A stretch of 19,859 bases of DNA from positions 1 through 19,859 of the IMG/VR virus record IMGVR_UViG_3300045988_109904; one strand, given 5' to 3'. The DNA comes from a virus (taxonomy: Duplodnaviria > Heunggongvirae > Uroviricota > Caudoviricetes). A model generated the notes under the pieces. That model was not told the DNA's origin, did not search any database, and worked only from the letters and a program-made list of their open reading frames with translations. The translations under genes were made by a program, and so were the position numbers. How positions within the stretch are numbered: position 1 is the first letter of the stretch; each line of letters opens with the position of its first letter. This document shows, one piece after another, positions 1 to 19,802 of the stretch.

Positions 1-77
1 AGTTGCCAGACCGCAAGGTGTTTTAACAAATCAAAAGGGGTTTTAATAACTGGCTTAAAGCTGAAAGCTTTCCGGAA

Positions 78-100
78 CCCCCAGCCTAGCTGGGGGTTTT
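78..100 (+). terminator. Putative rho-independent terminator (plus-strand orientation)
   Basis: Perfect 8-bp GC-rich stem cccccagc (78-85) / gctggggg (89-96) with 3-nt loop, followed by TTTT (97-100). The U-tract is on the plus strand only. Confidence 0.5.
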
Positions 101-110
101 CTGTGCACAA

Positions 111-135
111 GAAAAGGCGGGCAATTCGCCCGCCT
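111..135 (-). terminator. Putative rho-independent terminator for the minus-strand accessory gene / late tail operon
   Basis: Stem ggcgggc (116-122) / gcccgcc (128-134) with 5-nt loop. On the minus strand it is followed by TTTT (complement of 112-115 aaaa). It lies about 200 nt downstream of the stop of the 341..934 gene. Confidence 0.55.
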
Positions 136-340
136 GTCCTGATTTGAACTCACTCATTTTCCGACTGACAATTTACATAGCCCAAAAGTTATCAAATCTG
201 ACGGTCTGCTTTGAACAAGAAGCGGACATTTGCCTGTCAGGGTATATACCGCTCTGCGGTTATTATCCAGAATCAATAATTCATCTGAGTTGGATTACAT
301 ATAAAACATAGTTACCCCATGAATAACCATTAGCAGATTA

Positions 341-934
341 TCAATTATGTAAATCTTTTGTTTTATGTTCTTTGGTGTGTTGTGACAACAAATGGCTATA
401 GCGTTTAAGCAAAATATTAGAAAGATTAAGCTCATTCATGAAGTGTTCTTCTAATAAGTAACCATCAATATCAACTTTAATATCATTACCACTTTTCATC
501 TTCTGTAACGTAGATTTTACACGCTCCAGCAGGATGCTTTGCTCATGGTAATAGTCCATAAGAAGAGTAACATCCTCTTTATCAAGCTTACTTAATTCGC
601 TGAAGTAGGATTTAAACACTTTATCAGTCTGGTTTAATGCAATCTGTAAGCGAGGCCCCCCTAATGATTTGACATTAATGGCAAAAGGCTCGCCAACAAA
701 ATGCTCCGAATTTTCGTCAAAGCCAATATATCTCGTTTTATCAAGAAAAGTGAGAGCGCGATGGTTATTAGCGATTTCATATGCAAACATTGTTCTGATA
801 CTGTCCCTCTCAGCCTCCATAGTTATATCATCACGATGATTTGTATAAAATATATTTCCAACAAAGAGAACCATAGCAAGAATCACTGAACTTGCCTCCC
901 AGTTAATATTTTTTAATCGTCGCTTAGTAAACAT
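341..934 (-). CDS. Hypothetical membrane-anchored accessory protein (197 aa) at the post-tfa variable locus
   Basis: ATG at 934-932 preceded by AAGGTG 4 nt upstream; stop at 341-343. Basic N-terminus (MFTKRRLKN) followed by one hydrophobic helix (SSVILAMVLFVGNIFYT), then a hydrophilic domain of about 160 aa. Markedly AT-rich compared with the adjacent tail genes. I recognise no family. Confidence 0.75.
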   Translation of the reverse strand: MFTKRRLKNINWEASSVILAMVLFVGNIFYTNHRDDITMEAERDSIRTMFAYEIANNHRALTFLDKTRYIGFDENSEHFVGEPFAINVKSLGGPRLQIALNQTDKVFKSYFSELSKLDKEDVTLLMDYYHEQSILLERVKSTLQKMKSGNDIKVDIDGYLLEEHFMNELNLSNILLKRYSHLLSQHTKEHKTKDLHN

Positions 935-1155
935 ACCGCACCTTAATTATCAAAAATATTCCTTCAGTGTTATCTGGTTAGCCTAAACCAAGTCATTAAA
1001 GTCTGCAGGATATCATATACATAAAATGTATTGATTAGAATTTGCACTAATAAAATAATGCTTTACTAAAATCTACTCCAGACACAGAGCGGCCTGTCAG
1101 ATTAGGCTTTACTCTGTGCCATAGATATGTTTGCTCACTCCAGAGATCATACAAC

Positions 1156-1683
1156 TTATTGCGGCATTTCCGGCCATTCAGGATTTGCAGGATCCACACG
1201 ACTGACCAGAACGCTGTAACGCTCCCATGCATCCAGTCGGCTACGCTCCTCATCTGTTGCCATGTTCAGTCTGACCGCGCGCTCCAGCGGCAAAATCACG
1301 GATTCAGCATCTGCAAGAAGTCTGGCTTTCCGGTTTTCTGCCTGCTGCAGCAATTCCTCTGCCGTATAAATGCGTTTAATCACTTTGCCGTCCTTAAACA
1401 TCCAGTTCCCTGAAATGTCCGCCCGTCGGTTAGCAGTAATATCCGCCACTTCAACAACACTTAATCCATCCGGTCTGATAGCTGTCACATCCTTTTCCAC
1501 ATAGCGGATGATATTATCTTTGTCGTACGCTATTTTTAGCGTGTCATCAGCAAAATACTTTTGTTCTTCGTACCAGTTCTTACCATCTTCTGAAAAAAAC
1601 CAGACAACATCAAAGTCTTTTGTCAATTGATATTGTTCAACCGTTTTTGGATTCCCCGCCGTAATATTTTTTAAATGCTGCAT
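1156..1683 (-). CDS. G: Tail fibre assembly protein (P2 gpG-like, Tfa family)
   Basis: 175-aa ORF with ATG at 1683 and TAA at 1156-1158, sitting 3 nt after the tail-fibre gene stop. The C-terminal region ([14 protein letters not shown]...NPEWPEMP) is characteristic of Tfa chaperones; length matches P2 G. Confidence 0.9.
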
Positions 1684-1686
1684 AAA

Positions 1687-4446
1687 TTATACCTGCGCCA
1701 CGTTATACCATGTCCCGTTAATGTATTTCTGAACCGGTCTGTAATATACACCACCAATGTTATCGGCAGAGTTTGAGCCGGTATCCTGAACAATAATGCC
1801 GGAATATACACACCCGGACGGTGCCTGATGTGTCCATGTCATGCCATTGTTCGCAGGTTTGTATGTGGCAGCACCACCAAGCCGGATATCCCGGACATAG
1901 CGGGAATCAAAGTTACCGTAATCCGAGGGATTAACACGCCCCGTAATATTTATGGTTTTATTACTTTGAATACTTCCCGAGACAAAGCGCATAACATGGA
2001 CGCTATTAGCATAAACATCCAGATTACCATCACCATTTTGTTTAAAGCCCGTGTCATTATCACCCAAAACAATCGAATTACCGCCAAGAGCACTGGATGT
2101 TCCTATACCCAGAGCACCATTCAATTGACCACCAGATAACGGCAGTGCACCGACATCTCCCGCTGTAGGTTTTCGCGTTGTGGTATAAAACTCAGACCAG
2201 TCAGCCTCGAATCCGTAACCGTCACGAGCAGAACGATAAAAAATACCGCCGTTCTTATAATTAACGCGGAACTGGGCGGCGGGACAACTTCCTTCACCGA
2301 TATTAAAATGAAGAATTAACGTTGATGCCCCACCAGTAGTTGCGTTATAGGCTCCGCTACTCCAGTTCCACCCAACGGCTTTATCATTCGCAACGGTGTC
2401 TCCTGTTTTTCCTGAAGCAAATGCACCAATATTTTTCGGCGTCAGGTTAATATCTGATGTTCCATCAAACGAAACGTTATTAATTTTACGGGCTGTTTTC
2501 AGCTTTGTTGCTGTCGCCGCATTGCCGGACAGTTCACCAGAAAGGCCAGCACTGAATGTCTGTTTCGCGCCCCATGTCTGGGCTTCGTCAATGATTGGTA
2601 CTCGTCTTGCTGTGATCGTGCGGCTTCCCGGATTTCCTGAAATACGCACCATAAAAAATCGGTAGTTCGCTTTACTTACAGTGCTGCGCCATACATGCAT
2701 TGAGCGCCCCGTACCGGAATCATCACTCGGACCAACTGCGATGTTTATCAGGTTGCCATCAATGACGCCCCAGTCCATACCGTCGGGAATATTGGTCATA
2801 TTATCCAGCCTAACGGTTATCAGACTGCCCGGCACAAAATCGTAGGTCTGCCAGTCCAGGCTGGTGAGCTTTGCCACAGCACCGCCGATACCCAGATTCA
2901 GGGGAAGTGAATACGAGGTGTAGACTTCCCGCCATTCGCTCCATGAGCTGCCGGTAAAGACGCGCTCAAAGGTGCGGCCTTTAAGGGTTGTACCTGTTCC
3001 GGCAGTTGTATAACGCTGCCATACATTAACACCATCAAACCGCCTCAACACTTCCAGAATGCCGAGTACAGTCACGCCGTTTCCGTCCAGTACTGGACCG
3101 TTGGTCGCTTTACCTGTAACGCTGTAAATACCTGGTGAGGTTACATCATTCAAATCACCTTCGTAATAACGACTCTCTGACTGATGACCGACTCTTAACC
3201 ACGGTTCCCACTGCGGATTTGATGCATCCCAGCTTGCCGCAAGGCAGCGGACATACATATTTCCACGGCGAGTGGTATAACGTTGCGTTCTTCCATAATT
3301 TCCGCCTTCGAGGATCTCAAGCATCCCCTGAGCAAAGCCGCCTTCCTCTGGATAATTGCGTTCATATGAAGCTATAGCCGAGCTACTGTTACGCCATAAA
3401 CCAAGATGTTCGGCGGCTCCAAGCGTATTCAGGTCTATAGTCGTACTCAAAGGGCGGGTAGCTGATTGAGTGTGACGCCATATGCCCCACGGACCATCAG
3501 AGCCATTCCACTTATTGGCGAGTCTGCGTATGTATACATTGCCGTCTCTCGTGGTGAAGCGTTGCGTACCTGCAAAATTGCCGGCAGCAAAAACCTCAAG
3601 CACACCGACAGCATTATCTTCCGGGAAATTTTTCTCCAGTGTTGCGTTAGTTGAGGTAGTTTTAGACCAGATTCCCAGATAAGCCTTAACGGGACCAAAT
3701 GTATTCAGATCAGCATCAAGCGGCATTTCGCCATTGTTTTTCATAAACGTCAGGCTGGTAACGCCAACATTGTCCAGAAAAGCGTCCTTATCTGGAATAT
3801 CGCCACCGTTCTGGTCTTTCTGCAGACGTTTCTCAGCATTGTCATAGGCTGCTTTTACTGCCTTTGGCGTTGCAGCCTGCTTTTCACTGGTGCTGTTTGT
3901 TGCACTGCTTAACTGAGTAAAACCTTTTTCTGTCAGCGTGGCGTCAGGATGGCGGCGGGACTGCTCATGCTCTGCGATTTTGTCATCGACGTAATCCTGC
4001 GTCGCCATCACTGTGCTGGCATCAATACTCAGCTCAACGGACGCCACGTTGCTGAGAATAATAACCATGCGGCAGGTCTGCGCACGTCCGGAGCCTTCAG
4101 CCAGTTCTGGCTTATAGCTTTCTGCCATGTTGGATACCGCAATCAGTGTTCCGGCATCGTCATACAGACCAAGCTCACGCATCCAGAAGCCGCCCACTTC
4201 TGGCGGAACAACCAGTTCAGCCACGATATAGTTTTTATTCTTGTTATCCACACTGACTTTATTCAGTGCATGACGCCAGACTTCATGCACCAGTTTCGTC
4301 TGACCGGCATCCGGCACCGGCAATTGGCCATTACCGTCACCCACAGCCATTGCAGACAGGTTTACTTTTTTCCCGCCGGGAACAGTGGCGGCTGCCAGCT
4401 TCGCGGCTCCGGCAGTAGTGATAACGGTTTTAAATTTCGTGCTCAT
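1687..4446 (-). CDS. H: Tail fibre protein (P2 gpH-like N-terminus, divergent and extended C-terminal receptor-binding region)
   Basis: 919-aa ORF with ATG at 4446 and TAA at 1687-1689. The N-terminal ~200 aa contain strings I recall from P2 gpH (TVITTAGAAKLAAAT, EVWRHALNK, PPEVGGFWMRELGLYDDAGTLIAV, ATQDYVDDKIAEHEQSRRHPDA, KGFTQLSSATNSTSE). The remainder is Gly/Ser/Thr/Asn-rich fibre-like sequence with internal repeats. Confidence 0.92.
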   Translation of the reverse strand: MSTKFKTVITTAGAAKLAAATVPGGKKVNLSAMAVGDGNGQLPVPDAGQTKLVHEVWRHALNKVSVDNKNKNYIVAELVVPPEVGGFWMRELGLYDDAGTLIAVSNMAESYKPELAEGSGRAQTCRMVIILSNVASVELSIDASTVMATQDYVDDKIAEHEQSRRHPDATLTEKGFTQLSSATNSTSEKQAATPKAVKAAYDNAEKRLQKDQNGGDIPDKDAFLDNVGVTSLTFMKNNGEMPLDADLNTFGPVKAYLGIWSKTTSTNATLEKNFPEDNAVGVLEVFAAGNFAGTQRFTTRDGNVYIRRLANKWNGSDGPWGIWRHTQSATRPLSTTIDLNTLGAAEHLGLWRNSSSAIASYERNYPEEGGFAQGMLEILEGGNYGRTQRYTTRRGNMYVRCLAASWDASNPQWEPWLRVGHQSESRYYEGDLNDVTSPGIYSVTGKATNGPVLDGNGVTVLGILEVLRRFDGVNVWQRYTTAGTGTTLKGRTFERVFTGSSWSEWREVYTSYSLPLNLGIGGAVAKLTSLDWQTYDFVPGSLITVRLDNMTNIPDGMDWGVIDGNLINIAVGPSDDSGTGRSMHVWRSTVSKANYRFFMVRISGNPGSRTITARRVPIIDEAQTWGAKQTFSAGLSGELSGNAATATKLKTARKINNVSFDGTSDINLTPKNIGAFASGKTGDTVANDKAVGWNWSSGAYNATTGGASTLILHFNIGEGSCPAAQFRVNYKNGGIFYRSARDGYGFEADWSEFYTTTRKPTAGDVGALPLSGGQLNGALGIGTSSALGGNSIVLGDNDTGFKQNGDGNLDVYANSVHVMRFVSGSIQSNKTINITGRVNPSDYGNFDSRYVRDIRLGGAATYKPANNGMTWTHQAPSGCVYSGIIVQDTGSNSADNIGGVYYRPVQKYINGTWYNVAQV

Positions 4447-7851: not shown

Positions 7852-8104
7852 CGTTTTCGTCCTGACAGTGTTTAATCATTTTTACCTGGCTGGCACAGCG
7901 TGCCAGCGCGTTCTCAAGCTGCCGGATATCGGCACTTAAATCGCCGTTCGTCTCCGGGTCACTGCCCGGCATCGGGCAAAGACTCACTTTCGGGCAGGCG
8001 TTGTGGACAATCACTGGCGTCGGTGCAGGCGGGGCGCTGGTGCAACCGGCGCACAGCATCAGGCAGGTCAGCGCCATACCAGCGGCGAAAATCCTCGTTT
8101 TCAT
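7814..8104 (-). CDS. lysC: LysC, Rz1-like outer-membrane lipoprotein spanin (o-spanin), embedded in an alternative frame of lysB
   Basis: Internal ATG at 8104-8102 of the 7814..8221 track ORF gives a ~96-aa product. It starts MKTRIFAAGMALTCLMLCAGC (signal peptide plus lipobox L-C-A-G-C) and is then Pro-rich. This is the same embedded arrangement as P2 lysB/lysC. Confidence 0.75.
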   Translation of the reverse strand: MKTRIFAAGMALTCLMLCAGCTSAPPAPTPVIVHNACPKVSLCPMPGSDPETNGDLSADIRQLENALARCASQVKMIKHCQDENDAQTRQPAQGAD

Positions 8105-8384
8105 TAAGTAACCTCGTGATGGTTTTCTCGCGCAGTGCTTCACGCTTCGCGGCGTTCTCCAGTTCCTGACGCAGTGCCACCTGCGCCAGCTCGTTTTTGT
8201 CTGCCCTGGTGAGTGCAACATGAAGCTGATTTTTCAGCATGGTGATGGTCGTCTGCTGCCCGCTGGCGACGCTGTTCGCCCTGTCCAGTGAGGTGCGCAG
8301 GCTGGCGTTTTCATGCTTCGCCAGAAACAGCCCCGCCACCGCCAGCGATAACAACACGACCAGCACAATCATCAGCTTTGACAT
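7959..8384 (-). CDS. lysB: LysB, Rz-like inner-membrane spanin (i-spanin)
   Basis: 141-aa ORF with ATG at 8384. N-terminal transmembrane helix (MSKLMIVLVVLLSLAVAGLFLA) followed by a charged coiled-coil-like periplasmic domain. It is in the P2 lysB position. Confidence 0.85.
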   Translation of the reverse strand: MSKLMIVLVVLLSLAVAGLFLAKHENASLRTSLDRANSVASGQQTTITMLKNQLHVALTRADKNELAQVALRQELENAAKREALREKTITRLLNENEDFRRWYGADLPDAVRRLHQRPACTDASDCPQRLPESESLPDAGQ

Positions 8385-8797
8385 AATTCCCGCCCCTCAA
8401 GACGCTGACGACAGGCTTTACGTATCAGCCGGAAAAACACCGACGCCACGAGGTAAATCAGCGCAGTAAAAATCCACCCGGCAGCGACCAGCGAGATAAA
8501 CGTCGCCACCATCACCACCAGAGCCGCCGCCCGTCTGCGCCACGGCACCGGCTGCAAAAACAGCGACGCGACAATCTTCACGGCCAGCGATTCCGGCGAC
8601 AGCTCCCGCCCGTAGCGCTCCAGTACATACTCTGTGGCATACACGCCGACACCACCGGCAACCACACAGATAACCGTCGCCAGAATCGCCCCGGCGGCGA
8701 CAAAACTGACGGCCACGCTCTGCGGGTAAATCAGGGACAGTGCCAGCATCAGCGCCAGCGACACGTTCAGCATCAGTGAAAGGGATAATTTCTTCAT
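8372..8797 (-). CDS. lysA: LysA, multi-pass membrane protein of the lysis cassette (lysis-timing / antiholin-like)
   Basis: 141-aa ORF with ATG at 8797 and stop overlapping the lysB start. It has several hydrophobic segments and sits between the endolysin and spanin genes as in P2. Confidence 0.85.
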   Translation of the reverse strand: MKKLSLSLMLNVSLALMLALSLIYPQSVAVSFVAAGAILATVICVVAGGVGVYATEYVLERYGRELSPESLAVKIVASLFLQPVPWRRRAAALVVMVATFISLVAAGWIFTALIYLVASVFFRLIRKACRQRLEGRELCQS

Positions 8798-8811
8798 GGT
8801 GTTTACTCCGT

Positions 8812-9309
8812 TTAAGCCGGTACGCCGCCAGCGGTACGCCAGACGGTGACCAGTTTTTCCAGTGAATGCTCACGCTGACCGTAACCGGCTCCCGGCAGGG
8901 ACGCCCAGATATTGCGACAGCGTGAAATAGCGCGCTCAATGCGTCCCGCCCGGATGTCATCCAGTGCACCGCGTTCGCGGATCAACTGAATGGCGAGCCT
9001 GTCCTGTGACAACGGACTGAAATCCGGCAGGGCAAGCTGTTTGCGGTAGTGCGGCCAGAACAGGTAAAGCTGCTGATAGCGACCGGATGCCGTGGACTTT
9101 TCACCGCGACGGTTAAACACCTTCGCCGGTCGGCCATGCGCGAACGGGTGGTCACTGTAGTCGGTGAAAATTTCCGGCTTCCCGTCCAGTCCGGTGACTA
9201 TCACGTCATAGCCCCGGTTTTTCGTCAGCGGATGGTTTGCCGTCCCTTCGGACACGGCCAGCATGTCGAGAAAGGCGGCGATATTCTGATGCGTGTTAAT
9301 AACCGGCAT
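8812..9309 (-). CDS. K: Endolysin (P2 gpK-like)
   Basis: 165-aa ORF with ATG at 9309, immediately downstream of the holin gene. Size and sequence fit P2 gpK. Confidence 0.9.
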   Translation of the reverse strand: MPVINTHQNIAAFLDMLAVSEGTANHPLTKNRGYDVIVTGLDGKPEIFTDYSDHPFAHGRPAKVFNRRGEKSTASGRYQQLYLFWPHYRKQLALPDFSPLSQDRLAIQLIRERGALDDIRAGRIERAISRCRNIWASLPGAGYGQREHSLEKLVTVWRTAGGVPA

Positions 9310-9590
9310 TACGGTTTCCCCCTGCCCTTAAAGCGGCGCTGAATGGCAATCTCAATCACCTGATAACCGGCGATACCCAGCATGGAGCCGATGCCGCACA
9401 CCGCAGGCAGTGACAGGTCAGGAAACTGCACCAGAACAACACCGGCAACCATCGAGACAAAACCACCGAGCAACATGCGCCCGATAAACAGACGCGGGGT
9501 GATGGGTTCACCACCGGCAAGCACCTTGCCGACAACAATCAGCACCCCAATCATGAAAAGCGACAGGACGCTTTTTTCTTCTGCTGTCAT
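9309..9590 (-). CDS. Y: Holin (P2 gpY-like)
   Basis: 93-aa ORF with ATG at 9590. It has hydrophobic transmembrane segments and a charged C-terminus (RRFKGRGKP), and its stop overlaps the K start. Confidence 0.9.
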   Translation of the reverse strand: MTAEEKSVLSLFMIGVLIVVGKVLAGGEPITPRLFIGRMLLGGFVSMVAGVVLVQFPDLSLPAVCGIGSMLGIAGYQVIEIAIQRRFKGRGKP

Positions 9591-16631: not shown

Positions 16632-17996
16632 ATGATTAATTTAATTATGGGTGGTTTTCCCGACCACTACGACCACTGGAAACCATTCAGCCAAAATAAT
16701 GGAGAATTCTCATTTCTTTTATCACGAATGTTTGAAAACACCTCCGATGGTATTCGCAAAAAACTATCCCCATTAAGCAGCAATGTACTATCTTATCTTG
16801 AAAAACTCCCAACAATATTCATGAGTGAAGCTTATCAAATAGAGGGAGCAAAACCTTATTATGTCGACATACGAATTGGAAGAATTTCAAATATTCACAT
16901 TAAGGGAAAAGAAATCAACTTCCAATTTGCAATCACCCATACACACAATGAAATCAAAATATCAGACGCCAAAAGTGTTGAAAGCAGTTTAGAACTCGGA
17001 ACTTATGGCCTTAAAAGAACACACTGGGCCATAAAAGACAAAAATATAGATGATATCCTTAAGACATTTGGTATTAACCAAAATGCACAAGTGGATAGCA
17101 GTCCAGCGCCTCTCCCAGACGAAGATAGCACATTATTAACCGTAAATAGTTTACAAGAATTTATTGAAAAAGTTCTCCATATAACAGCAGATATGGATGA
17201 GGAGATTTTTTACAGGGGTCATTCAGATTCATCTTATGAACTTGCACCATCTCTTTTCAGAAAATATGAAAATGGGAACTATAAATTTCTACATAATGAA
17301 ATCAACCTTGTTAAAGAAGCATTGAGCGCAAGACCCTCAGAATTCATTGATGATACATCAATGCTTGATAAACTTGTAAGAATGCAACATTATGGCATAC
17401 CTACTCGCTTACTTGACATCACATCAAATCCATTAATTGCACTTTATTTTGCATGCAGTAGTATAAATTCCGACAAAAACGATATCGATGGTCAAGTAAT
17501 AATATTTAAAACACACAGAGAGAACATTAAATTTTTCGATTCCGACACTGTCAGTTGCATATCTAATTTATGCATGCTATCAAAAGACATGAAAGACAAG
17601 CTTTCTTTCGAAGAAAGAAATAATGATTTTAACAACTCTCATGCTTGCCTTAAACTCTTAGAATCCATAAAGCATGAAAAACCATATTTTCAAAGCATAA
17701 TAAATCCAGATGATTTGGAAAAGATAATTTTTGTAAAAAGCAGGATAAATAATGAAAGAATATCATCTCAATCCGGTGCCTTTTTATTATTCGGTAATAA
17801 CGCCGTTTTTCCTGAGATATCCAACGATCAGGCAGATAATTCACCATACAACTTTAAGACAGAAAAAATAAACATCAGAGACAAAAAGAAAATTTTAAAA
17901 GAACTTGCCGTGCTCAATATTACTGATGCCACTGTATATTTAGGATTGGAAAGAACAATGAAACTAATCACAGAAAAATACACATTAAAAAATTAG
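16632..17996 (+). CDS. FRG-domain protein (454 aa) with an unassigned ~190-aa N-terminal domain; candidate anti-phage cargo
   Basis: ATG at 16632 (AGGT 4 nt upstream), TAG at 17994-17996. The central region carries FRG-family signature strings: FYRGHSDSSYELAPSLFRK (from aa 193) and QHYGIPTRLLDITSNPLIALYFAC (from aa 252). The gene is AT-rich, unlike the phage core. Confidence 0.85.
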   Translation: MINLIMGGFPDHYDHWKPFSQNNGEFSFLLSRMFENTSDGIRKKLSPLSSNVLSYLEKLPTIFMSEAYQIEGAKPYYVDIRIGRISNIHIKGKEINFQFAITHTHNEIKISDAKSVESSLELGTYGLKRTHWAIKDKNIDDILKTFGINQNAQVDSSPAPLPDEDSTLLTVNSLQEFIEKVLHITADMDEEIFYRGHSDSSYELAPSLFRKYENGNYKFLHNEINLVKEALSARPSEFIDDTSMLDKLVRMQHYGIPTRLLDITSNPLIALYFACSSINSDKNDIDGQVIIFKTHRENIKFFDSDTVSCISNLCMLSKDMKDKLSFEERNNDFNNSHACLKLLESIKHEKPYFQSIINPDDLEKIIFVKSRINNERISSQSGAFLLFGNNAVFPEISNDQADNSPYNFKTEKINIRDKKKILKELAVLNITDATVYLGLERTMKLITEKYTLKN

Positions 17997-18023
17997 CATT
18001 CCATAACCAAAATATCTCCATAC

Positions 18024-18052
18024 TTCCCCGCAGAAATTAAGGCTACGGGGAA
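18024..18052. terminator. Hairpin between the convergent FRG and RT genes (possible bidirectional terminator)
   Basis: 7-bp stem ttccccg (18024-18030) / cggggaa (18046-18052) with a 15-nt loop, in the 108-bp gap between the two stop codons. The long loop and absence of a clean U-tract make this a weak call. Confidence 0.3.
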
Positions 18053-18104
18053 ATAACATCAGTAAGTATCTTAAGAACAATATAATCACTTACAGGAACC
18101 TGTA

Positions 18105-19082
18105 TTAAAGTGCAGTACTTGCTTTTAATGTAAGCACCTTTGATCTATAACGTTGTTCAATTACCCCCATAGAATGCAATCGTCCAAATAACTTTTTGGC
18201 AGTATGAGTTTCTCTTGCACACGCTGCATCCTTTATCATTTTCCAATATTCAATTTCTTGAGACATTAAAAGATGCTGCTTATTCCTGACTTTTAAAGAA
18301 CCGCCCAAAACAATAACACCTGTTACCAACTTAGGCTTTTCTCTACTATAAATTTTTGTTTTATCCGCATGCATCACATGACCATGCTTATTTATTATTT
18401 TGCGAATCACTGAACAAAATAGTCTATTAACGTTTTGTCCTGAAAAAGTTAGATCATCAACATAAACAGACATATTTACGTGTAGTTTATTACAAAGTTG
18501 GTGTATTTCTCCGAACATTCTTGAATTTGCAAAATATGCAAGAGGCATACTAATCCTGCTACCTGTAGGCAAACGCCCATAGCAAGTACATATATACGAT
18601 AATACATCCGCAACATCAGATGACATCTTCATAACAGAAAAAAAGAATGAAAATATCATTTCTCTAGTAGTTGATGGAAAAAAAGCCCTGATGTCGGTTG
18701 TCATCAACCTTTCATTATTAAGGTGGATTTTAGCATTAGTAACATTAGAACATCCCTTCTTTCCAGAATGTAGATAATCTGGCAAGGTAATTCGCGATAG
18801 CAGACTTGCAATACGAGTATGCACCACATCTAATTTTTCTAATGGTTTTTGTATCTTACGTGGCTTTCCGTTTTTAGATAACTGTTCAAAAATAGAATAA
18901 TTGCCTTCATCTTTTTTTAAGGTTGATAAATCCCCTACATCAACCCCCAATAAAGAAGCCAATTTCCTTTTACTTCTCATTTTATAAAACGGCGAATCAA
19001 TTATATCGTAAGATTTATTTTTAGTGGAAATTTTGAGTTTTATTCGTCTTTTCATTTTTCTTATTCGCCCACTCAATAACAT
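18105..19082 (-). CDS. Reverse transcriptase, retron-type (about 316-325 aa)
   Basis: ATG at 19082 (alternative ATG at 19055), TAA at 18105-18107. It has RT catalytic YVDD (aa 207-210, nt 18464-18453), LPTGSRISMPLA (the QGxxxSP-like motif), and two retron-RT hallmarks: NAxxH (NAKIH, aa 116-120) and VTG (KLVTGVIV, aa 252-259). Size matches retron RTs (Ec86 RT is about 320 aa). Confidence 0.88.
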   Translation of the reverse strand: MLLSGRIRKMKRRIKLKISTKNKSYDIIDSPFYKMRSKRKLASLLGVDVGDLSTLKKDEGNYSIFEQLSKNGKPRKIQKPLEKLDVVHTRIASLLSRITLPDYLHSGKKGCSNVTNAKIHLNNERLMTTDIRAFFPSTTREMIFSFFFSVMKMSSDVADVLSYICTCYGRLPTGSRISMPLAYFANSRMFGEIHQLCNKLHVNMSVYVDDLTFSGQNVNRLFCSVIRKIINKHGHVMHADKTKIYSREKPKLVTGVIVLGGSLKVRNKQHLLMSQEIEYWKMIKDAACARETHTAKKLFGRLHSMGVIEQRYRSKVLTLKASTAL

Positions 19083-19353
19083 CTAATACTTTACCAGCTA
19101 AATTTAAACGGAAACGCTTAGATAAACGCCCCTGCGTACCTAACGATTCTGAAAAAAATACTAAAGAAGATACCGGCATATCGAAATGGGAGGCGTAACG
19201 CTGTAAAACATCAATTGTAGGCGACCAAACCCCACTTTCGAGTTCTACTATTTTTTCTTTTGGAATACCTAAAGATGTTGATAAATCAACCAATGACTCT
19301 TTATGGTATTGCCTTATTAAACGAAGGGCTCTGTGTAACATAGGCAACTCCAT
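19021..19353 (-). CDS. XRE-family helix-turn-helix protein (110 aa) immediately upstream of, and overlapping, the RT gene
   Basis: ATG at 19353 (alternative ATG at 19341 with GGAG 6 nt upstream). HTH_XRE-like segment LRLIRQYHKESLVDLSTSLGIPKEKIVELESGVWSPTIDVLQRYASHF. Its 3' end overlaps the RT 5' end by about 35-60 nt, suggesting co-translation. Confidence 0.75.
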   Translation of the reverse strand: MELPMLHRALRLIRQYHKESLVDLSTSLGIPKEKIVELESGVWSPTIDVLQRYASHFDMPVSSLVFFSESLGTQGRLSKRFRLNLAGKVLDVIEWANKKNEKTNKTQNFH

Positions 19354-19377: not shown

Positions 19378-19533
19378 TTACTCATCACCCCCTTCAAAGT
19401 AGTCCAGTGCTCGAGTGGCTAAATCAAACAGTCTAATACCCCATTTGATTAATTTCCAAACATAACCAGCCCACTTTTTCAGGTTTGACTTGTTCTGCGC
19501 CTGCTGTTCGTTGGTTAATTTATCATTCTTCAT
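19378..19533 (-). CDS. Small ORF (51 aa) with a strong RBS, between the structured RNA region and the HTH gene
   Basis: ATG at 19533-19531 preceded by AAGGAG 7 nt upstream; stop at 19378-19380. Product MKNDKLTNEQQAQNKSNLKKWAGYVWKLIKWGIRLFDLATRALDYFEGGDE has a Trp-rich amphipathic stretch. The track's 130-aa version starts at TTG and reads through the structured region; I prefer the short form. Confidence 0.45.
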   Translation of the reverse strand: MKNDKLTNEQQAQNKSNLKKWAGYVWKLIKWGIRLFDLATRALDYFEGGDE

Positions 19534-19547
19534 GATTTGCTCCTTAT

Positions 19548-19802
19548 GCCCATAGTGTGCAAACGATATGTCTGCTCCAACACTATGGTTCGCCCTCATA
19601 AGGATGAGATTGAACAGCACTAGCCCCCTGCTCCACGAACCCTTGGTCGCCCAAAGGGTTCGAATACCCATACGCCATACCGCCTGATCCTGTGACTCTT
19701 GTCGCTGGCAGGGGCGTTGCGCGGGGTAAATGTTAGAAAGCGTTAACTTTCCACGGGTAAAGTTACCCAATTGATGGCGATGTATCTCACTAACTAACCA
19801 AT
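19548..19802 (-). ncRNA. Candidate structured non-coding RNA (possible retron msr-msd, or a structured operon leader)
   Basis: Dense inverted repeats on a GC-richer patch: an 11-bp stem with one bulge, cgaacccttgg (19636-19646) / ccaaagggttcg (19651-19662); a perfect 9-bp stem ccatagtgt (19550-19558) / acactatgg (19580-19588); and small hairpins around 19596-19612 and 19749-19770. Direct repeats tggagcag and gggcga(a)cca are also present. It lies downstream of an extended -10 promoter. Boundaries are approximate and a1/a2 repeats were not resolved. Confidence 0.35.

What the first reader, a model, noticed from the sequence alone, without database searches (positions are those of the whole stretch)
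341..934. AT-rich membrane-anchored 197-aa protein at the post-tail-fibre-assembly (Z/fun-position) variable locus
Downstream of gene G, where P2 carries the non-essential T5-exclusion gene Z/fun and where P2-like phages vary, there is an AT-rich gene whose product has a short basic N-terminus, a single transmembrane helix and a ~160-aa hydrophilic domain. The positive-inside rule suggests this domain faces the periplasm. That topology in this slot fits a superinfection-exclusion or injection-blocking protein, but I recognise no family, so it may be an uncharacterised one.
Basis: partly seen in the sequence, partly recalled or inferred. Interest (0 to 1): 0.55.

Follow-up and report, generated by a model that had tools for sequence, protein, structure and literature searches.

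The report
Membrane-anchored cargo protein in P2 prophage
A real, AT-rich, 197-residue gene sits in the known variable "Z/fun" slot of a P2-like E. coli prophage; it encodes an inner-membrane-anchored four-helix bundle of an uncharacterised family whose relatives also ride on P4 satellites, plasmids and a conjugative element and sit beside known anti-phage systems, so it is most likely an untested phage-exclusion or defence gene.

Summary
ORF 341..934 (minus strand, 197 aa, AAGGTG ribosome-binding site) has 35% GC against 51% for the window. It has a basic N-tail, one hydrophobic helix (about 13-31) and no other hydrophobic segment. It lies after tail-fibre-assembly gene G; in uninterrupted relatives the sheath gene FI follows, which is the P2 Z/fun hotspot.

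It is a real gene. It is present in 203 of 5,426 complete E. coli genomes and 13 Peduovirus records, with dN/dS of 0.07-0.31.

It matches nothing in Pfam, NCBIfam, PADLOC or PDB. It matches only PHROG 3829, which has no known function. NCBI's name "lysogenic conversion protein" has no experimental basis that I could find. It is unrelated to P2 Fun(Z), P22 SieA or SieB, or Rz spanins.

AlphaFold (pLDDT 85) gives a TM helix that runs on into a four-helix bundle. Charge bias across 39 family members predicts N-in, C-out.

Relatives (24-70% identity, Enterobacterales only) are single-gene cargo. They occur in the other P2 hotspot, in P4 satellites, an ICE and plasmids, and next to Gabija, Lamassu, SIR2-HerA, an R-M-like pair and an AbiC-like gene.

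Best reading: a stand-alone anti-phage protein acting at the envelope, probably at genome entry. The mechanism is inferred, not shown. It is a solid, testable candidate but not a surprising one.

The parts
341..934 (-). Coding sequence of the 197-aa protein. Residues 1-12 form a basic cytoplasmic tail. Residues ~13-31 form the TM helix, with a conserved NWEAxSVxxAMxLF motif. Residues ~38-178 form a four-helix bundle with a conserved loop at 67-91. Residues 186-197 are a disordered tail.
   Evidence: ORF listing; hydropathy, charge and GC; family alignments; AlphaFold model with pLDDT 84.8; dN/dS 0.07-0.31.
939..944 (-). Shine-Dalgarno sequence AAGGTG, 4 nt upstream of the ATG.
   Evidence: Read directly from the sequence. 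It is conserved as TAAGGAGG in the Enterobacter plasmid copy.
946..973 (-). Only sigma-70-like match upstream (ATAACA-16-GATAAT, 9 of 12). It is doubtful, because its -10 element ends 1 nt from the SD and would leave almost no leader.
   Evidence: Consensus scan. The scan found fewer promoter-like sites than in shuffled sequence, so this is not evidence of function.
935..1065 (-). AT-rich (35% GC) upstream region specific to the cargo. The gene's own promoter is presumed to lie here but was not located.
   Evidence: GC content. Homology to P2 downstream of G stops at about 1066. The same upstream stretch travels with the gene onto an Enterobacter plasmid.
1083..1118 (-). Hairpin CACAGAG...CTCTGTG in the ~95 nt after the G stop codon that are shared with P2. 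It belongs to the phage backbone and marks the left edge of the variable slot. It has no U-tract typical of a terminator.
   Evidence: Alignment with the P2 G-fun intergenic region. It was not called as a terminator by the scan.
136..340 (-). 205-nt 3' untranslated stretch between the stop codon and the terminator. No convincing ORF or RNA structure was found in it.
   Evidence: ORF list; RNA fold z-score -1.7; no Rfam match.
115..135 (-). Strong intrinsic terminator (9-bp stem with 7 G-C pairs, followed by TTTTCTT). It is the first strong terminator after G, so it ends both the cargo transcript and any read-through from the late V-G operon.
   Evidence: Terminator scan. P2's own V-operon terminator cannot be aligned here.
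1..108 (-). End of an IS200C copy (STnc490 / IS200 5' UTR RNA), inserted between the cargo terminator and the FI promoter region. It is not part of the gene, but it bounds the slot in this genome.
   Evidence: Most E. coli matches start at base 109, and only one genome shares the junction, with an annotated IS200C tnpA next to it. Rfam RF01405 matches at 101.8 bits.
1156..1683 (-). Tail-fibre-assembly gene G, the conserved upstream flank of the slot.
   Evidence: Pfam Caudo_TAP, E = 2e-34; 74% identical to P2 G; RefSeq annotation of an identical prophage.

Best explanation
The gene is a self-contained, horizontally mobile 'moron' that encodes a stand-alone anti-phage exclusion protein acting at the cell envelope.

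The product inserts in the inner membrane as a type II (N-in, C-out) signal-anchor protein. About 12 basic residues stay in the cytoplasm. A conserved TM helix with small-residue packing positions (S16, A20) runs straight on into the first helix of a ~140-residue periplasmic four-helix bundle.

Almost nothing of the protein is cytoplasmic, so it can only meet an incoming phage in the periplasm or the membrane. The most likely action is to interfere with the genome-delivery step. It could bind a phage tape-measure, ejection or tail-tip component, or it could bind the host inner-membrane protein that such components use.

It is probably transcribed from its own AT-rich upstream region in the lysogen, and also by read-through from the late V-G operon. 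Transcription ends at the terminator at 135..115.

Shown: the gene is real and under purifying selection; the architecture and fold; the cargo and defence-island contexts.
Inferred: topology, expression, anti-phage function, and the step that is blocked.
For: (1) It sits in a slot known to hold defence cargo. P2 fun(Z) occupies it. Vassallo et al. found three validated systems there. The NAR 2026 survey places 16% of P2 defence systems in the tail-gene hotspot downstream of GpL.

(2) The family behaves like defence cargo. Homologues are solitary genes in many independent settings:
- the other P2 hotspot, after the portal gene and beside a KAP NTPase;
- between the alpha primase and the element end in P4-like satellites of Pantoea and Kosakonia, which is a reported minor P4 defence hotspot;
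- among the tra genes of an ICE;
- an IncFII plasmid;
- directly beside Gabija GajA/B, Lamassu LmuA/B and SIR2-HerA;
- beside a putAbiC-domain protein;
- beside a C5-methylase/DUF4928 pair at the end of a lambdoid prophage.

(3) No conserved partner gene was found across these contexts, so it works alone.

(4) It is AT-rich (29-36% GC) in every host regardless of flanking GC, and dN/dS is 0.07-0.31.

(5) Topology. There is one hydrophobic segment. The N-tail carries a mean net charge of about +3, against about -0.6 for the 15 residues after the TM, and the bias holds in 36 of 39 members. A distant clade keeps a C-terminal CxxxxC pair in an otherwise Cys-poor domain.

(6) The AlphaFold model has pLDDT 84.8 and pTM 0.73. 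It shows a continuous helix 12-66 and then a four-helix bundle.

(7) TM residues (N11, W12, E13, A14, S16, V17, A20, M21, F24) are invariant across the 53-94%-identical members, which suggests a specific intramembrane contact.

(8) The gene is combined with at least three different G alleles and with unrelated H receptor-binding ends. It is therefore not an accessory of one tail fibre.
Against: - There is no experimental datum for any family member. No literature hit was found for its accessions, its PHROG or its name.
- Guilt by association cannot separate anti-phage from other envelope functions.
- No credible promoter was located, so expression in the lysogen is assumed.
- The hydrophobic segment of the E. 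coli protein is only moderately hydrophobic (1.54).
- Topology is predicted from charge bias only.
- PADLOC (2023 version) does not list the family even as a candidate.
Confidence: 0.45

Rival explanations
1. Abortive-infection effector. The protein is anti-phage but does not block entry. On infection it oligomerises through its conserved TM helix and permeabilises or depolarises the inner membrane, so the infected cell dies before phage are released.
For: - It has the same defence-island and hotspot contexts as the best explanation.
- Its neighbours (Gabija, Lamassu, SIR2-HerA, an AbiC-like gene) are largely abortive or DNA-targeting systems.
- The TM helix is conserved and has small-residue spacing (S16, A20) typical of helix-helix packing.
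Against: - Only about 12 residues are cytoplasmic, so the protein cannot sense intracellular phage products. A trigger would still have to arise in the periplasm or membrane.
- One moderately hydrophobic helix is a poor pore former on its own.
Confidence: 0.2
2. Lysogenic conversion or envelope modulation not aimed at phages. The periplasmic bundle binds a host inner-membrane or periplasmic protein, such as a sensor kinase, a Tol/Ton component or part of the LPS or O-antigen machinery. Alternatively it gives entry exclusion against conjugation, or immunity to a colicin or T6SS effector. In each case the lysogen's envelope physiology or competitive fitness changes.
For: - NCBI names the family 'lysogenic conversion protein'.
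- One homologue lies among the tra genes of an ICE, where entry-exclusion genes also lie.
- Small type II membrane proteins that modulate sensor kinases are known (my own knowledge, e.g. SafA acting on PhoQ).
Against: - The name has no traceable experimental basis.
- No toxin or effector gene is adjacent in any context, and no partner gene is conserved.
- The recurrent neighbours are anti-phage systems, not envelope or virulence genes.
- The ICE copy is on the opposite strand to the tra genes and sits about 1.5 kb from an IS110-family transposase gene, which fits hotspot cargo rather than a tra-operon exclusion gene.
Confidence: 0.17
3. A phage-benefit function in the lytic cycle. The candidates are an extra tail-fibre or baseplate accessory, a lysis-timing factor, or an i-spanin-like protein. 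It would be co-transcribed with the late V-G operon.
For: - It is on the same strand as H and G, with no strong terminator between G and the ORF, so late read-through transcription is likely.
- The topology (N-terminal TM, helical periplasmic domain) matches Rz-type i-spanins (my own knowledge).
Against: - It is absent from P2 itself, and only 203 of 5,426 complete E. coli genomes carry it, whereas seven times as many records match the flanking stretch that holds G.
- It occurs in satellites, plasmids, an ICE and chromosomal islands with no tail or lysis genes nearby.
- It is combined with unrelated H/G alleles.
- The phage already has a holin, an endolysin and an Rz-like spanin at 7959..9590.
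- hhalign probability against the P22 Rz-like spanin is 0.3%.
- There is no adjacent o-spanin lipoprotein gene.
- The model is a compact bundle, not an extended coiled coil.
Confidence: 0.05
4. Functionless AT-rich hitch-hiker: an ORF that persists only through linkage to mobile elements.
For: There is no known function, the family is tiny (19 representatives among 1.84 billion), and truncated copies exist (99-aa and 147-aa variants).
Against: - Purifying selection is clear. dN/dS is 0.07-0.31 with synonymous sites near saturation between genera.
- Full-length conservation down to 24% identity keeps the same architecture.
- The AlphaFold model built from the family alignment is confident.
Confidence: 0.03

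Closest known systems
P2 Fun(Z) (T5-exclusion / lysogenic-conversion gene of phage P2)
   Same: It occupies the same slot between G and FI, it is AT-rich non-essential cargo, and it is regarded as a lysogenic-conversion or defence gene.
   Different: Fun(Z) is 529 aa, on the opposite strand, and lies behind P2's own V-operon terminator. It shows no sequence relationship: tblastn did not find P2 and hhalign gives 0.07% probability. Nothing links the present protein to T5.
P22 SieA (inner-membrane superinfection-exclusion protein that blocks DNA injection)
   Same: It is a small (162-164 aa) prophage-expressed inner-membrane protein. It is encoded next to virion genes, is sufficient on its own, and acts on the genome-delivery conduit (PMC10883804). 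This is the functional model proposed here.
   Different: SieA has three predicted TM segments and a conserved motif predicted to be cytoplasmic. The present protein has one TM segment and a large periplasmic bundle. hhalign gives 2.5% probability, from TM-helix composition only.
N-terminally anchored Sie proteins with an extracytoplasmic domain (lactococcal Sie2009 type; T4 Spackle; HK97 gp15 moron)
   Same: From my own knowledge, these are single small proteins with an N-terminal membrane anchor or signal sequence and an outward-facing domain. They are encoded as morons, and HK97 gp15 lies within the tail-gene region. They block DNA entry after adsorption.
Periplasmic four-helix-bundle sensor domains (4HB_MCP/TarH of Tar, Tsr, PcaY, PilJ; sensor-kinase input domains)
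Rz-type i-spanins
   Same: They share the type II topology and an all-helical periplasmic domain (my own knowledge).
   Different: hhalign gives 0.3% probability. There is no o-spanin partner gene. The phage has its own Rz-like spanin at 7959..8384. The family also occurs outside phages.

Membership tests
PHROG 3829 / NCBI 'lysogenic conversion protein' cluster (uncharacterised) | Full-length sequence match to the family profile | tested here: met
   phrog_3829 matches at E = 5.7e-137 over residues 1-197 of 197. The exact sequence is in a 569-member 90% cluster that carries that NCBI name.
PHROG 3829 / NCBI 'lysogenic conversion protein' cluster (uncharacterised) | Demonstrated lysogenic-conversion phenotype behind the name | tested here: not met
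   No paper in the library holds the accessions, the PHROG id, or the phrase in this context. PHROG lists the function as unknown.
P2 Fun(Z) | Sequence homology to Fun(Z) | tested here: not met
   hhalign of the family profile against P2 Fun(Z) gives 0.07% probability. P2 NC_001895 is absent from the tblastn hits.
P2 Fun(Z) | Location between G and FI in a P2-like phage | tested here: met
   The strand is opposite to that of fun(Z).
P2 Fun(Z) | Blocks growth of T5 | not testable with these tools
   This needs a plating assay.
P22 SieA-type exclusion proteins | Sequence homology and a three- or four-TM architecture | tested here: not met
   hhalign gives 2.5% probability. The protein has one hydrophobic segment only, against three predicted TM segments in SieA.
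P22 SieA-type exclusion proteins | Blocks DNA entry after normal adsorption | not testable with these tools
   This needs adsorption, K+ efflux and DNA-entry assays.
SieB / T4 Imm and other Pfam-modelled exclusion families | Match to the Pfam model or to P22 SieB | tested here: not met
   The query has no Pfam family at E <= 10. None of the 40 family members has a hit below E = 0.002. hhalign against P22 SieB gives 0.2% probability.
Known or candidate defence systems in PADLOC-DB v2 | Match to any of the 5,027 models | tested here: not met
   No families at E <= 10. Neighbouring genes in the same window and in related loci do match, so the tool works.
Rz-type i-spanin | Sequence similarity, a partner o-spanin lipoprotein gene, and a place in the lysis cassette | tested here: not met
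   hhalign gives 0.3% probability. No conserved neighbour was found. The lysis cassette, with its own spanin, is at 7959..9590.
4HB_MCP / TarH periplasmic sensor domains | Profile match, plus a second TM segment and a cytoplasmic signalling module | tested here: not met
   There is no Pfam match. The protein ends about 20 residues after the bundle with no second hydrophobic segment. Only generic fold similarity was found.
Prophage 'moron' (autonomous promoter-gene-terminator cargo) | Atypical base composition, an insertion between conserved backbone genes, and its own terminator | tested here: met
   GC is 35% against 51%. Homology to P2 ends about 95 nt after G. A strong terminator lies at 135..115.
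Prophage 'moron' (autonomous promoter-gene-terminator cargo) | Own promoter that is active in the lysogen | tested here: inconclusive
   The only consensus match (973..946) is badly placed relative to the SD. In the Pantoea P4 copy the gene follows a terminator-like hairpin, which implies its own promoter there. There are no transcript data.

The most novel reading that the evidence does not exclude
The family is a new, minimal type of envelope-level immunity. A single type II inner-membrane protein uses its periplasmic four-helix bundle to recognise a conserved feature of phage genome-delivery machinery, or of the host channel that machinery uses, and stops infection before DNA enters. It is portable enough to be shared by P2 phages, their P4 satellites, ICEs, plasmids and chromosomal defence islands across Enterobacterales. 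This sharing occurs even though a recent survey found that P2 and P4 almost never exchange defence genes.
Probability: 0.3. Interest if true: 0.6.

Novelty: new member of a known kind. Interest (0 to 1): 0.42.

Why it matters
If the protein is an anti-phage exclusion factor, it would add a one-gene, 197-residue system with no homology to any described one. That system is carried by about 4% of sequenced E. coli genomes and is currently invisible to PADLOC and to curated family libraries.

Its periplasm-facing architecture would make it a convenient probe of a poorly understood step: how tailed phages get DNA across the periplasm and inner membrane. Escape mutants would name the phage component it targets.

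It is also relevant to phage-therapy host-range prediction.

It gives a concrete case of one cargo family present in both P2 hotspots and in P4 satellites. If it has no phenotype, it is simply one more unknown hotspot ORF.

Tried and rejected
- Curated libraries gave nothing: Pfam at E <= 10, NCBIfam (only a 13.8-bit chance hit) and PADLOC. A Pfam scan of all 40 family members gave only scattered chance hits.
- A PDB sequence-profile search gave nothing below E = 0.13.
- The first AlphaFold run, on a shallow alignment of 30 close homologues, failed (pLDDT 53). Adding the 24-40%-identical members found by the exhaustive HMMER scan raised it to 84.8.
- Literature searches for the accessions, the PHROG id, the FIG id and 'lysogenic conversion protein' found nothing relevant. 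Odegrip 2006 is not held in the library. None of the new systems named in the 2026 P2/P4 survey resembles this protein.
- A search for a conserved partner gene within 1.2 kb, across 11 contexts, found none.
- A metal-binding or di-iron reading of the E/H residues in the bundle was dropped, because those residues are not conserved in the distant clades.
- A cleavable signal peptide was considered and rejected. There is no small -1/-3 residue pair after the hydrophobic core, the TM residues are conserved, and the model shows a continuous helix 12-66.
- The promoter scan gave no usable site.
- Folding the 3' untranslated region showed nothing beyond the terminator.

Full report
**1. What is there**

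The minus strand of 341..934 holds an ATG-initiated ORF of 197 codons. An AAGGTG Shine-Dalgarno sequence at 944..939 lies 4 nt upstream. The ORF is 34.8% G+C, in a window of 50.6%. The neighbouring G and H genes are 45% and 49%.

The product has a basic N-tail, MFTKRRLKNINWE. It has a single hydrophobic stretch at about residues 13-31, with a Kyte-Doolittle 19-residue mean of 1.54. Nothing hydrophobic follows (maximum 0.38), and there are no cysteines.

The ORF lies 221 nt downstream of a Caudo_TAP tail-fibre-assembly gene (1156..1683) that is 74% identical to P2 G. That gene follows a 919-aa tail-fibre gene.

In E. coli prophages 99.9% identical over 109..1700, the next genes are the sheath FI, tube FII, E/E', T, U and D. 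This is exactly the slot where P2 carries fun(Z).

The rest of the window is a P2-type late region.

**2. It is a real gene**

The exact protein belongs to a 569-member 90% cluster. The DNA is present once, on the chromosome, in 203 of 5,426 complete E. coli genomes at 95-100% identity. It is in 13 Peduovirus records and 27 IMG/VR P2-like contigs.

Pairwise Nei-Gojobori dN/dS values are 0.24 within E. coli and 0.07-0.14 between genera, where synonymous sites are close to saturation. They are 0.19 and 0.31 within two distant clades.

**3. Transcription-unit anatomy**

The first ~95 nt after the G stop codon align with P2. This stretch includes a CACAGAG...CTCTGTG hairpin at 1118..1083. Homology ends near 1066. 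From there to the ATG the sequence is cargo-specific and AT-rich.

P2's annotated V-operon terminator has no counterpart here. The first strong intrinsic terminator on this strand is at 135..115, 205 nt after the stop codon. It has a 9-bp stem with 7 G-C pairs and a T-run.

I infer that the ORF can be read through from the late V-G operon and also has its own promoter. Two observations suggest this. The same upstream ~200 nt accompanies the gene on an Enterobacter IncFII plasmid. In a Pantoea P4-like satellite the gene follows a terminator-like hairpin.

No convincing promoter was located. The single consensus hit, at 973..946, would leave almost no leader.

Bases 1..108 are the end of an IS200C copy. 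Rfam STnc490 matches there at 101.8 bits. Only one other genome shares the junction. The IS element sits between the terminator and the FI promoter region.

**4. Family**

No Pfam, NCBIfam or PADLOC model matches. The only named family is PHROG 3829, 'unknown function', at E = 6e-137.

An exhaustive HMMER scan of 1.84 billion cluster representatives found just 19. A profile search of 5.8 billion sequences found 53, all from Enterobacterales. The genera are Escherichia, Salmonella, Enterobacter, Pluralibacter, Kosakonia, Pantoea, Serratia and Dickeya, plus Proteus and Limnobaculum.

Members range down to 24% identity and keep the same plan: a basic tail, one TM helix and a ~165-residue helical domain. 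R47, Y52, N57 and L117 are invariant across the whole family. Within the 53-94%-identical group the TM helix itself is nearly invariant (N11 W12 E13 A14 S16 V17 A20 M21 F24). That hints at a specific contact inside the membrane.

NCBI's recent name, 'lysogenic conversion protein', appears on many members. I found no publication behind it.

**5. Structure and topology**

With only close homologues AlphaFold failed (pLDDT 53). With the distant members added it gave pLDDT 84.8 and pTM 0.73. The model has one continuous helix, 12-66, in which the TM segment runs on into bundle helix 1. A conserved loop follows at 67-91, then helices 92-116, 119-148 and 151-178. This is a membrane-anchored up-down four-helix bundle.

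For topology, the N-tail carries on average 3.6 K/R and 0.6 D/E. The 15 residues after the TM carry 2.7 K/R and 3.3 D/E. The bias points the same way in 36 of 39 members. One distant clade keeps a C-terminal CxxxxC pair, and another keeps a C-x4-C pair in the loop, in otherwise Cys-poor domains. That would suit a disulphide in the periplasm. N-in, C-out is thus well supported as a prediction, but it is not shown.

**6. Context of relatives: the main functional evidence**

Each of the following is an independent setting.

- a. The Z/fun slot of E. coli P2-like phages. There the gene is combined with at least three G alleles (about 99%, 79% and 72-73% nt identity) and with unrelated H C-termini.
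- b. The other P2 hotspot, just after the portal gene, beside a KAP P-loop NTPase (32% identity).
- c. P4-like satellites of Pantoea and Kosakonia, directly after the alpha primase at the element's edge. The 2026 survey lists primase-to-att as a minor P4 defence hotspot.
- d. A Salmonella ICE, between tra genes and about 1.5 kb from an IS110-family transposase gene.
- e. An Enterobacter IncFII plasmid, next to IS91 and VapC.
- f. Serratia, next to Gabija GajA/GajB.
- g. A metagenomic contig, next to Lamassu LmuA/LmuB.
- h. Dickeya, next to SIR2-HerA and IS110.
- i. Proteus, next to a putAbiC-domain protein and an HD protein.
- j. Salmonella, at the end of a lambdoid prophage, next to a C5 methylase and DUF4928.
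- k. Pantoea rodasii, and a metagenome contig, near ParB, an AbiJ-N-domain protein and a 1,524-aa AAA protein.

No neighbouring ORF is conserved between contexts, so the gene is a stand-alone unit. It is 29-36% G+C wherever it sits, even in 52-56% G+C surroundings.

This is the signature of mobile defence cargo. The slot itself has yielded validated systems. In the 2026 survey, six of eight randomly chosen unknown loci at P4 hotspots were protective.

**7. Mechanism**

What is shown is the architecture, the selection and the company the gene keeps. The rest is inference.

Only about 12 residues are cytoplasmic. The protein therefore cannot read intracellular phage signals. Whatever it recognises must be in the periplasm or the membrane, and that is where tailed phages assemble their genome-delivery conduit.

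The most economical model is superinfection exclusion at the entry step. It is functionally like P22 SieA, an inner-membrane protein that is sufficient on its own and whose escape mutations map to ejection proteins.

I give this 0.45. Abortive, membrane-damaging action gets 0.2. A non-phage envelope, entry-exclusion or immunity role gets 0.17. A lytic-cycle role gets 0.05 and no function gets 0.03.

**8. Comparison with known families**

Direct profile comparisons show no relationship to P2 Fun(Z) (0.07%), P22 SieA (2.5%), P22 SieB (0.2%) or the P22 Rz-like i-spanin (0.3%).

It works like a Sie protein only by analogy. It is a member of none of the families tested. Sie2009, T4 Spackle and HK97 gp15 are recalled analogues that I did not test.

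**9. Verdict**

The T5 suggestion has no support.

The slot is a known defence hotspot. Unknown ORFs there are expected, and many of them turn out to be defensive, so a specialist would not be surprised.

The value here lies in a compact, widely distributed and easily testable candidate whose periplasm-facing design is unusual among catalogued defence proteins. Novelty: a new member of a known kind. Interest: 0.42.

Noticed in passing
window 1..108: The end of an IS200C element is inserted between the cargo terminator and the FI (pF) promoter region of the prophage. Rfam STnc490 / IS200 5' UTR RNA matches at 1..98 on the minus strand at 101.8 bits. Only one of 5,426 complete E. coli genomes shares this junction. 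Whether it affects late F-operon expression is unknown.
   Followed up: partly
window 16632..19353: The other P2 hotspot, after portal Q, carries defence cargo. It holds a 454-aa FRG-domain protein that matches the PADLOC candidate PDC-S15 (16632..17996, plus strand). It also holds a type VI retron: a reverse transcriptase (18105..19082, minus strand) and an HTH_VI partner (19021..19353, minus strand). Rfam found no retron ncRNA.
   Followed up: partly
window 19378..19770 (-): A 130-aa ORF next to the retron matches PHROG 5826 (unknown function, E = 3.5e-65). It has no Pfam or PADLOC hit. It might overlap the retron's non-coding RNA region.
   Followed up: no
window 1083..1118 (-), and 1066..1155: About 95 nt after the G stop codon are conserved with phage P2, including a CACAGAG...CTCTGTG hairpin. 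The conservation ends abruptly where the cargo begins. This stretch may be the recombination boundary of the hotspot, or a processing or attenuation signal for the V-G operon.
   Followed up: partly
L044 3172..5585 (IMG/VR contig IMGVR_UViG_641736172_000003): A 32%-identical family member sits in the portal-proximal hotspot of another P2-like phage. It lies immediately after a 593-aa KAP-family P-loop NTPase, which resembles the single-gene 'Reve' system described in the 2026 P2/P4 survey.
   Followed up: partly
L009 5001..5600 (Pantoea) and L012 6001..6591 (Kosakonia); also L043: The same protein family (62% identity) is carried by P4-like satellites just after the alpha primase. So one cargo family is shared by P2 phages and P4 satellites, although a recent survey reports that the two almost never exchange defence genes.
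   Followed up: partly
distant homologues P0063, P0067, P0070-P0078 (C-termini) and P0065 (residues 82/87): Conserved cysteine pairs spaced i, i+5 (CxxxxC) occur in the predicted periplasmic part of the distant clades. They are absent from the E. coli clade. They may form a disulphide loop. P0063 also has a CQCNC motif in its cytoplasmic tail.
   Followed up: no
window 1687..4446 (-): The tail-fibre gene H is 919 aa, against 717 aa in a related prophage that carries the same cargo gene. It has a gp37_C-type C-terminal domain. Only the N-terminal ~207 and the C-terminal ~83 residues align between the two, which illustrates receptor-binding module swapping right next to the cargo slot.
   Followed up: partly
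L010 4893..5486 (Enterobacter cloacae plasmid CP033467): The plasmid copy is annotated as a 161-aa N-terminally truncated protein. However, the reading frame is open over the full length, with GTG or TTG in place of the ATG. The P2-type post-G sequence is still attached upstream, so it is a captured fragment of a P2-like phage.
   Followed up: partly
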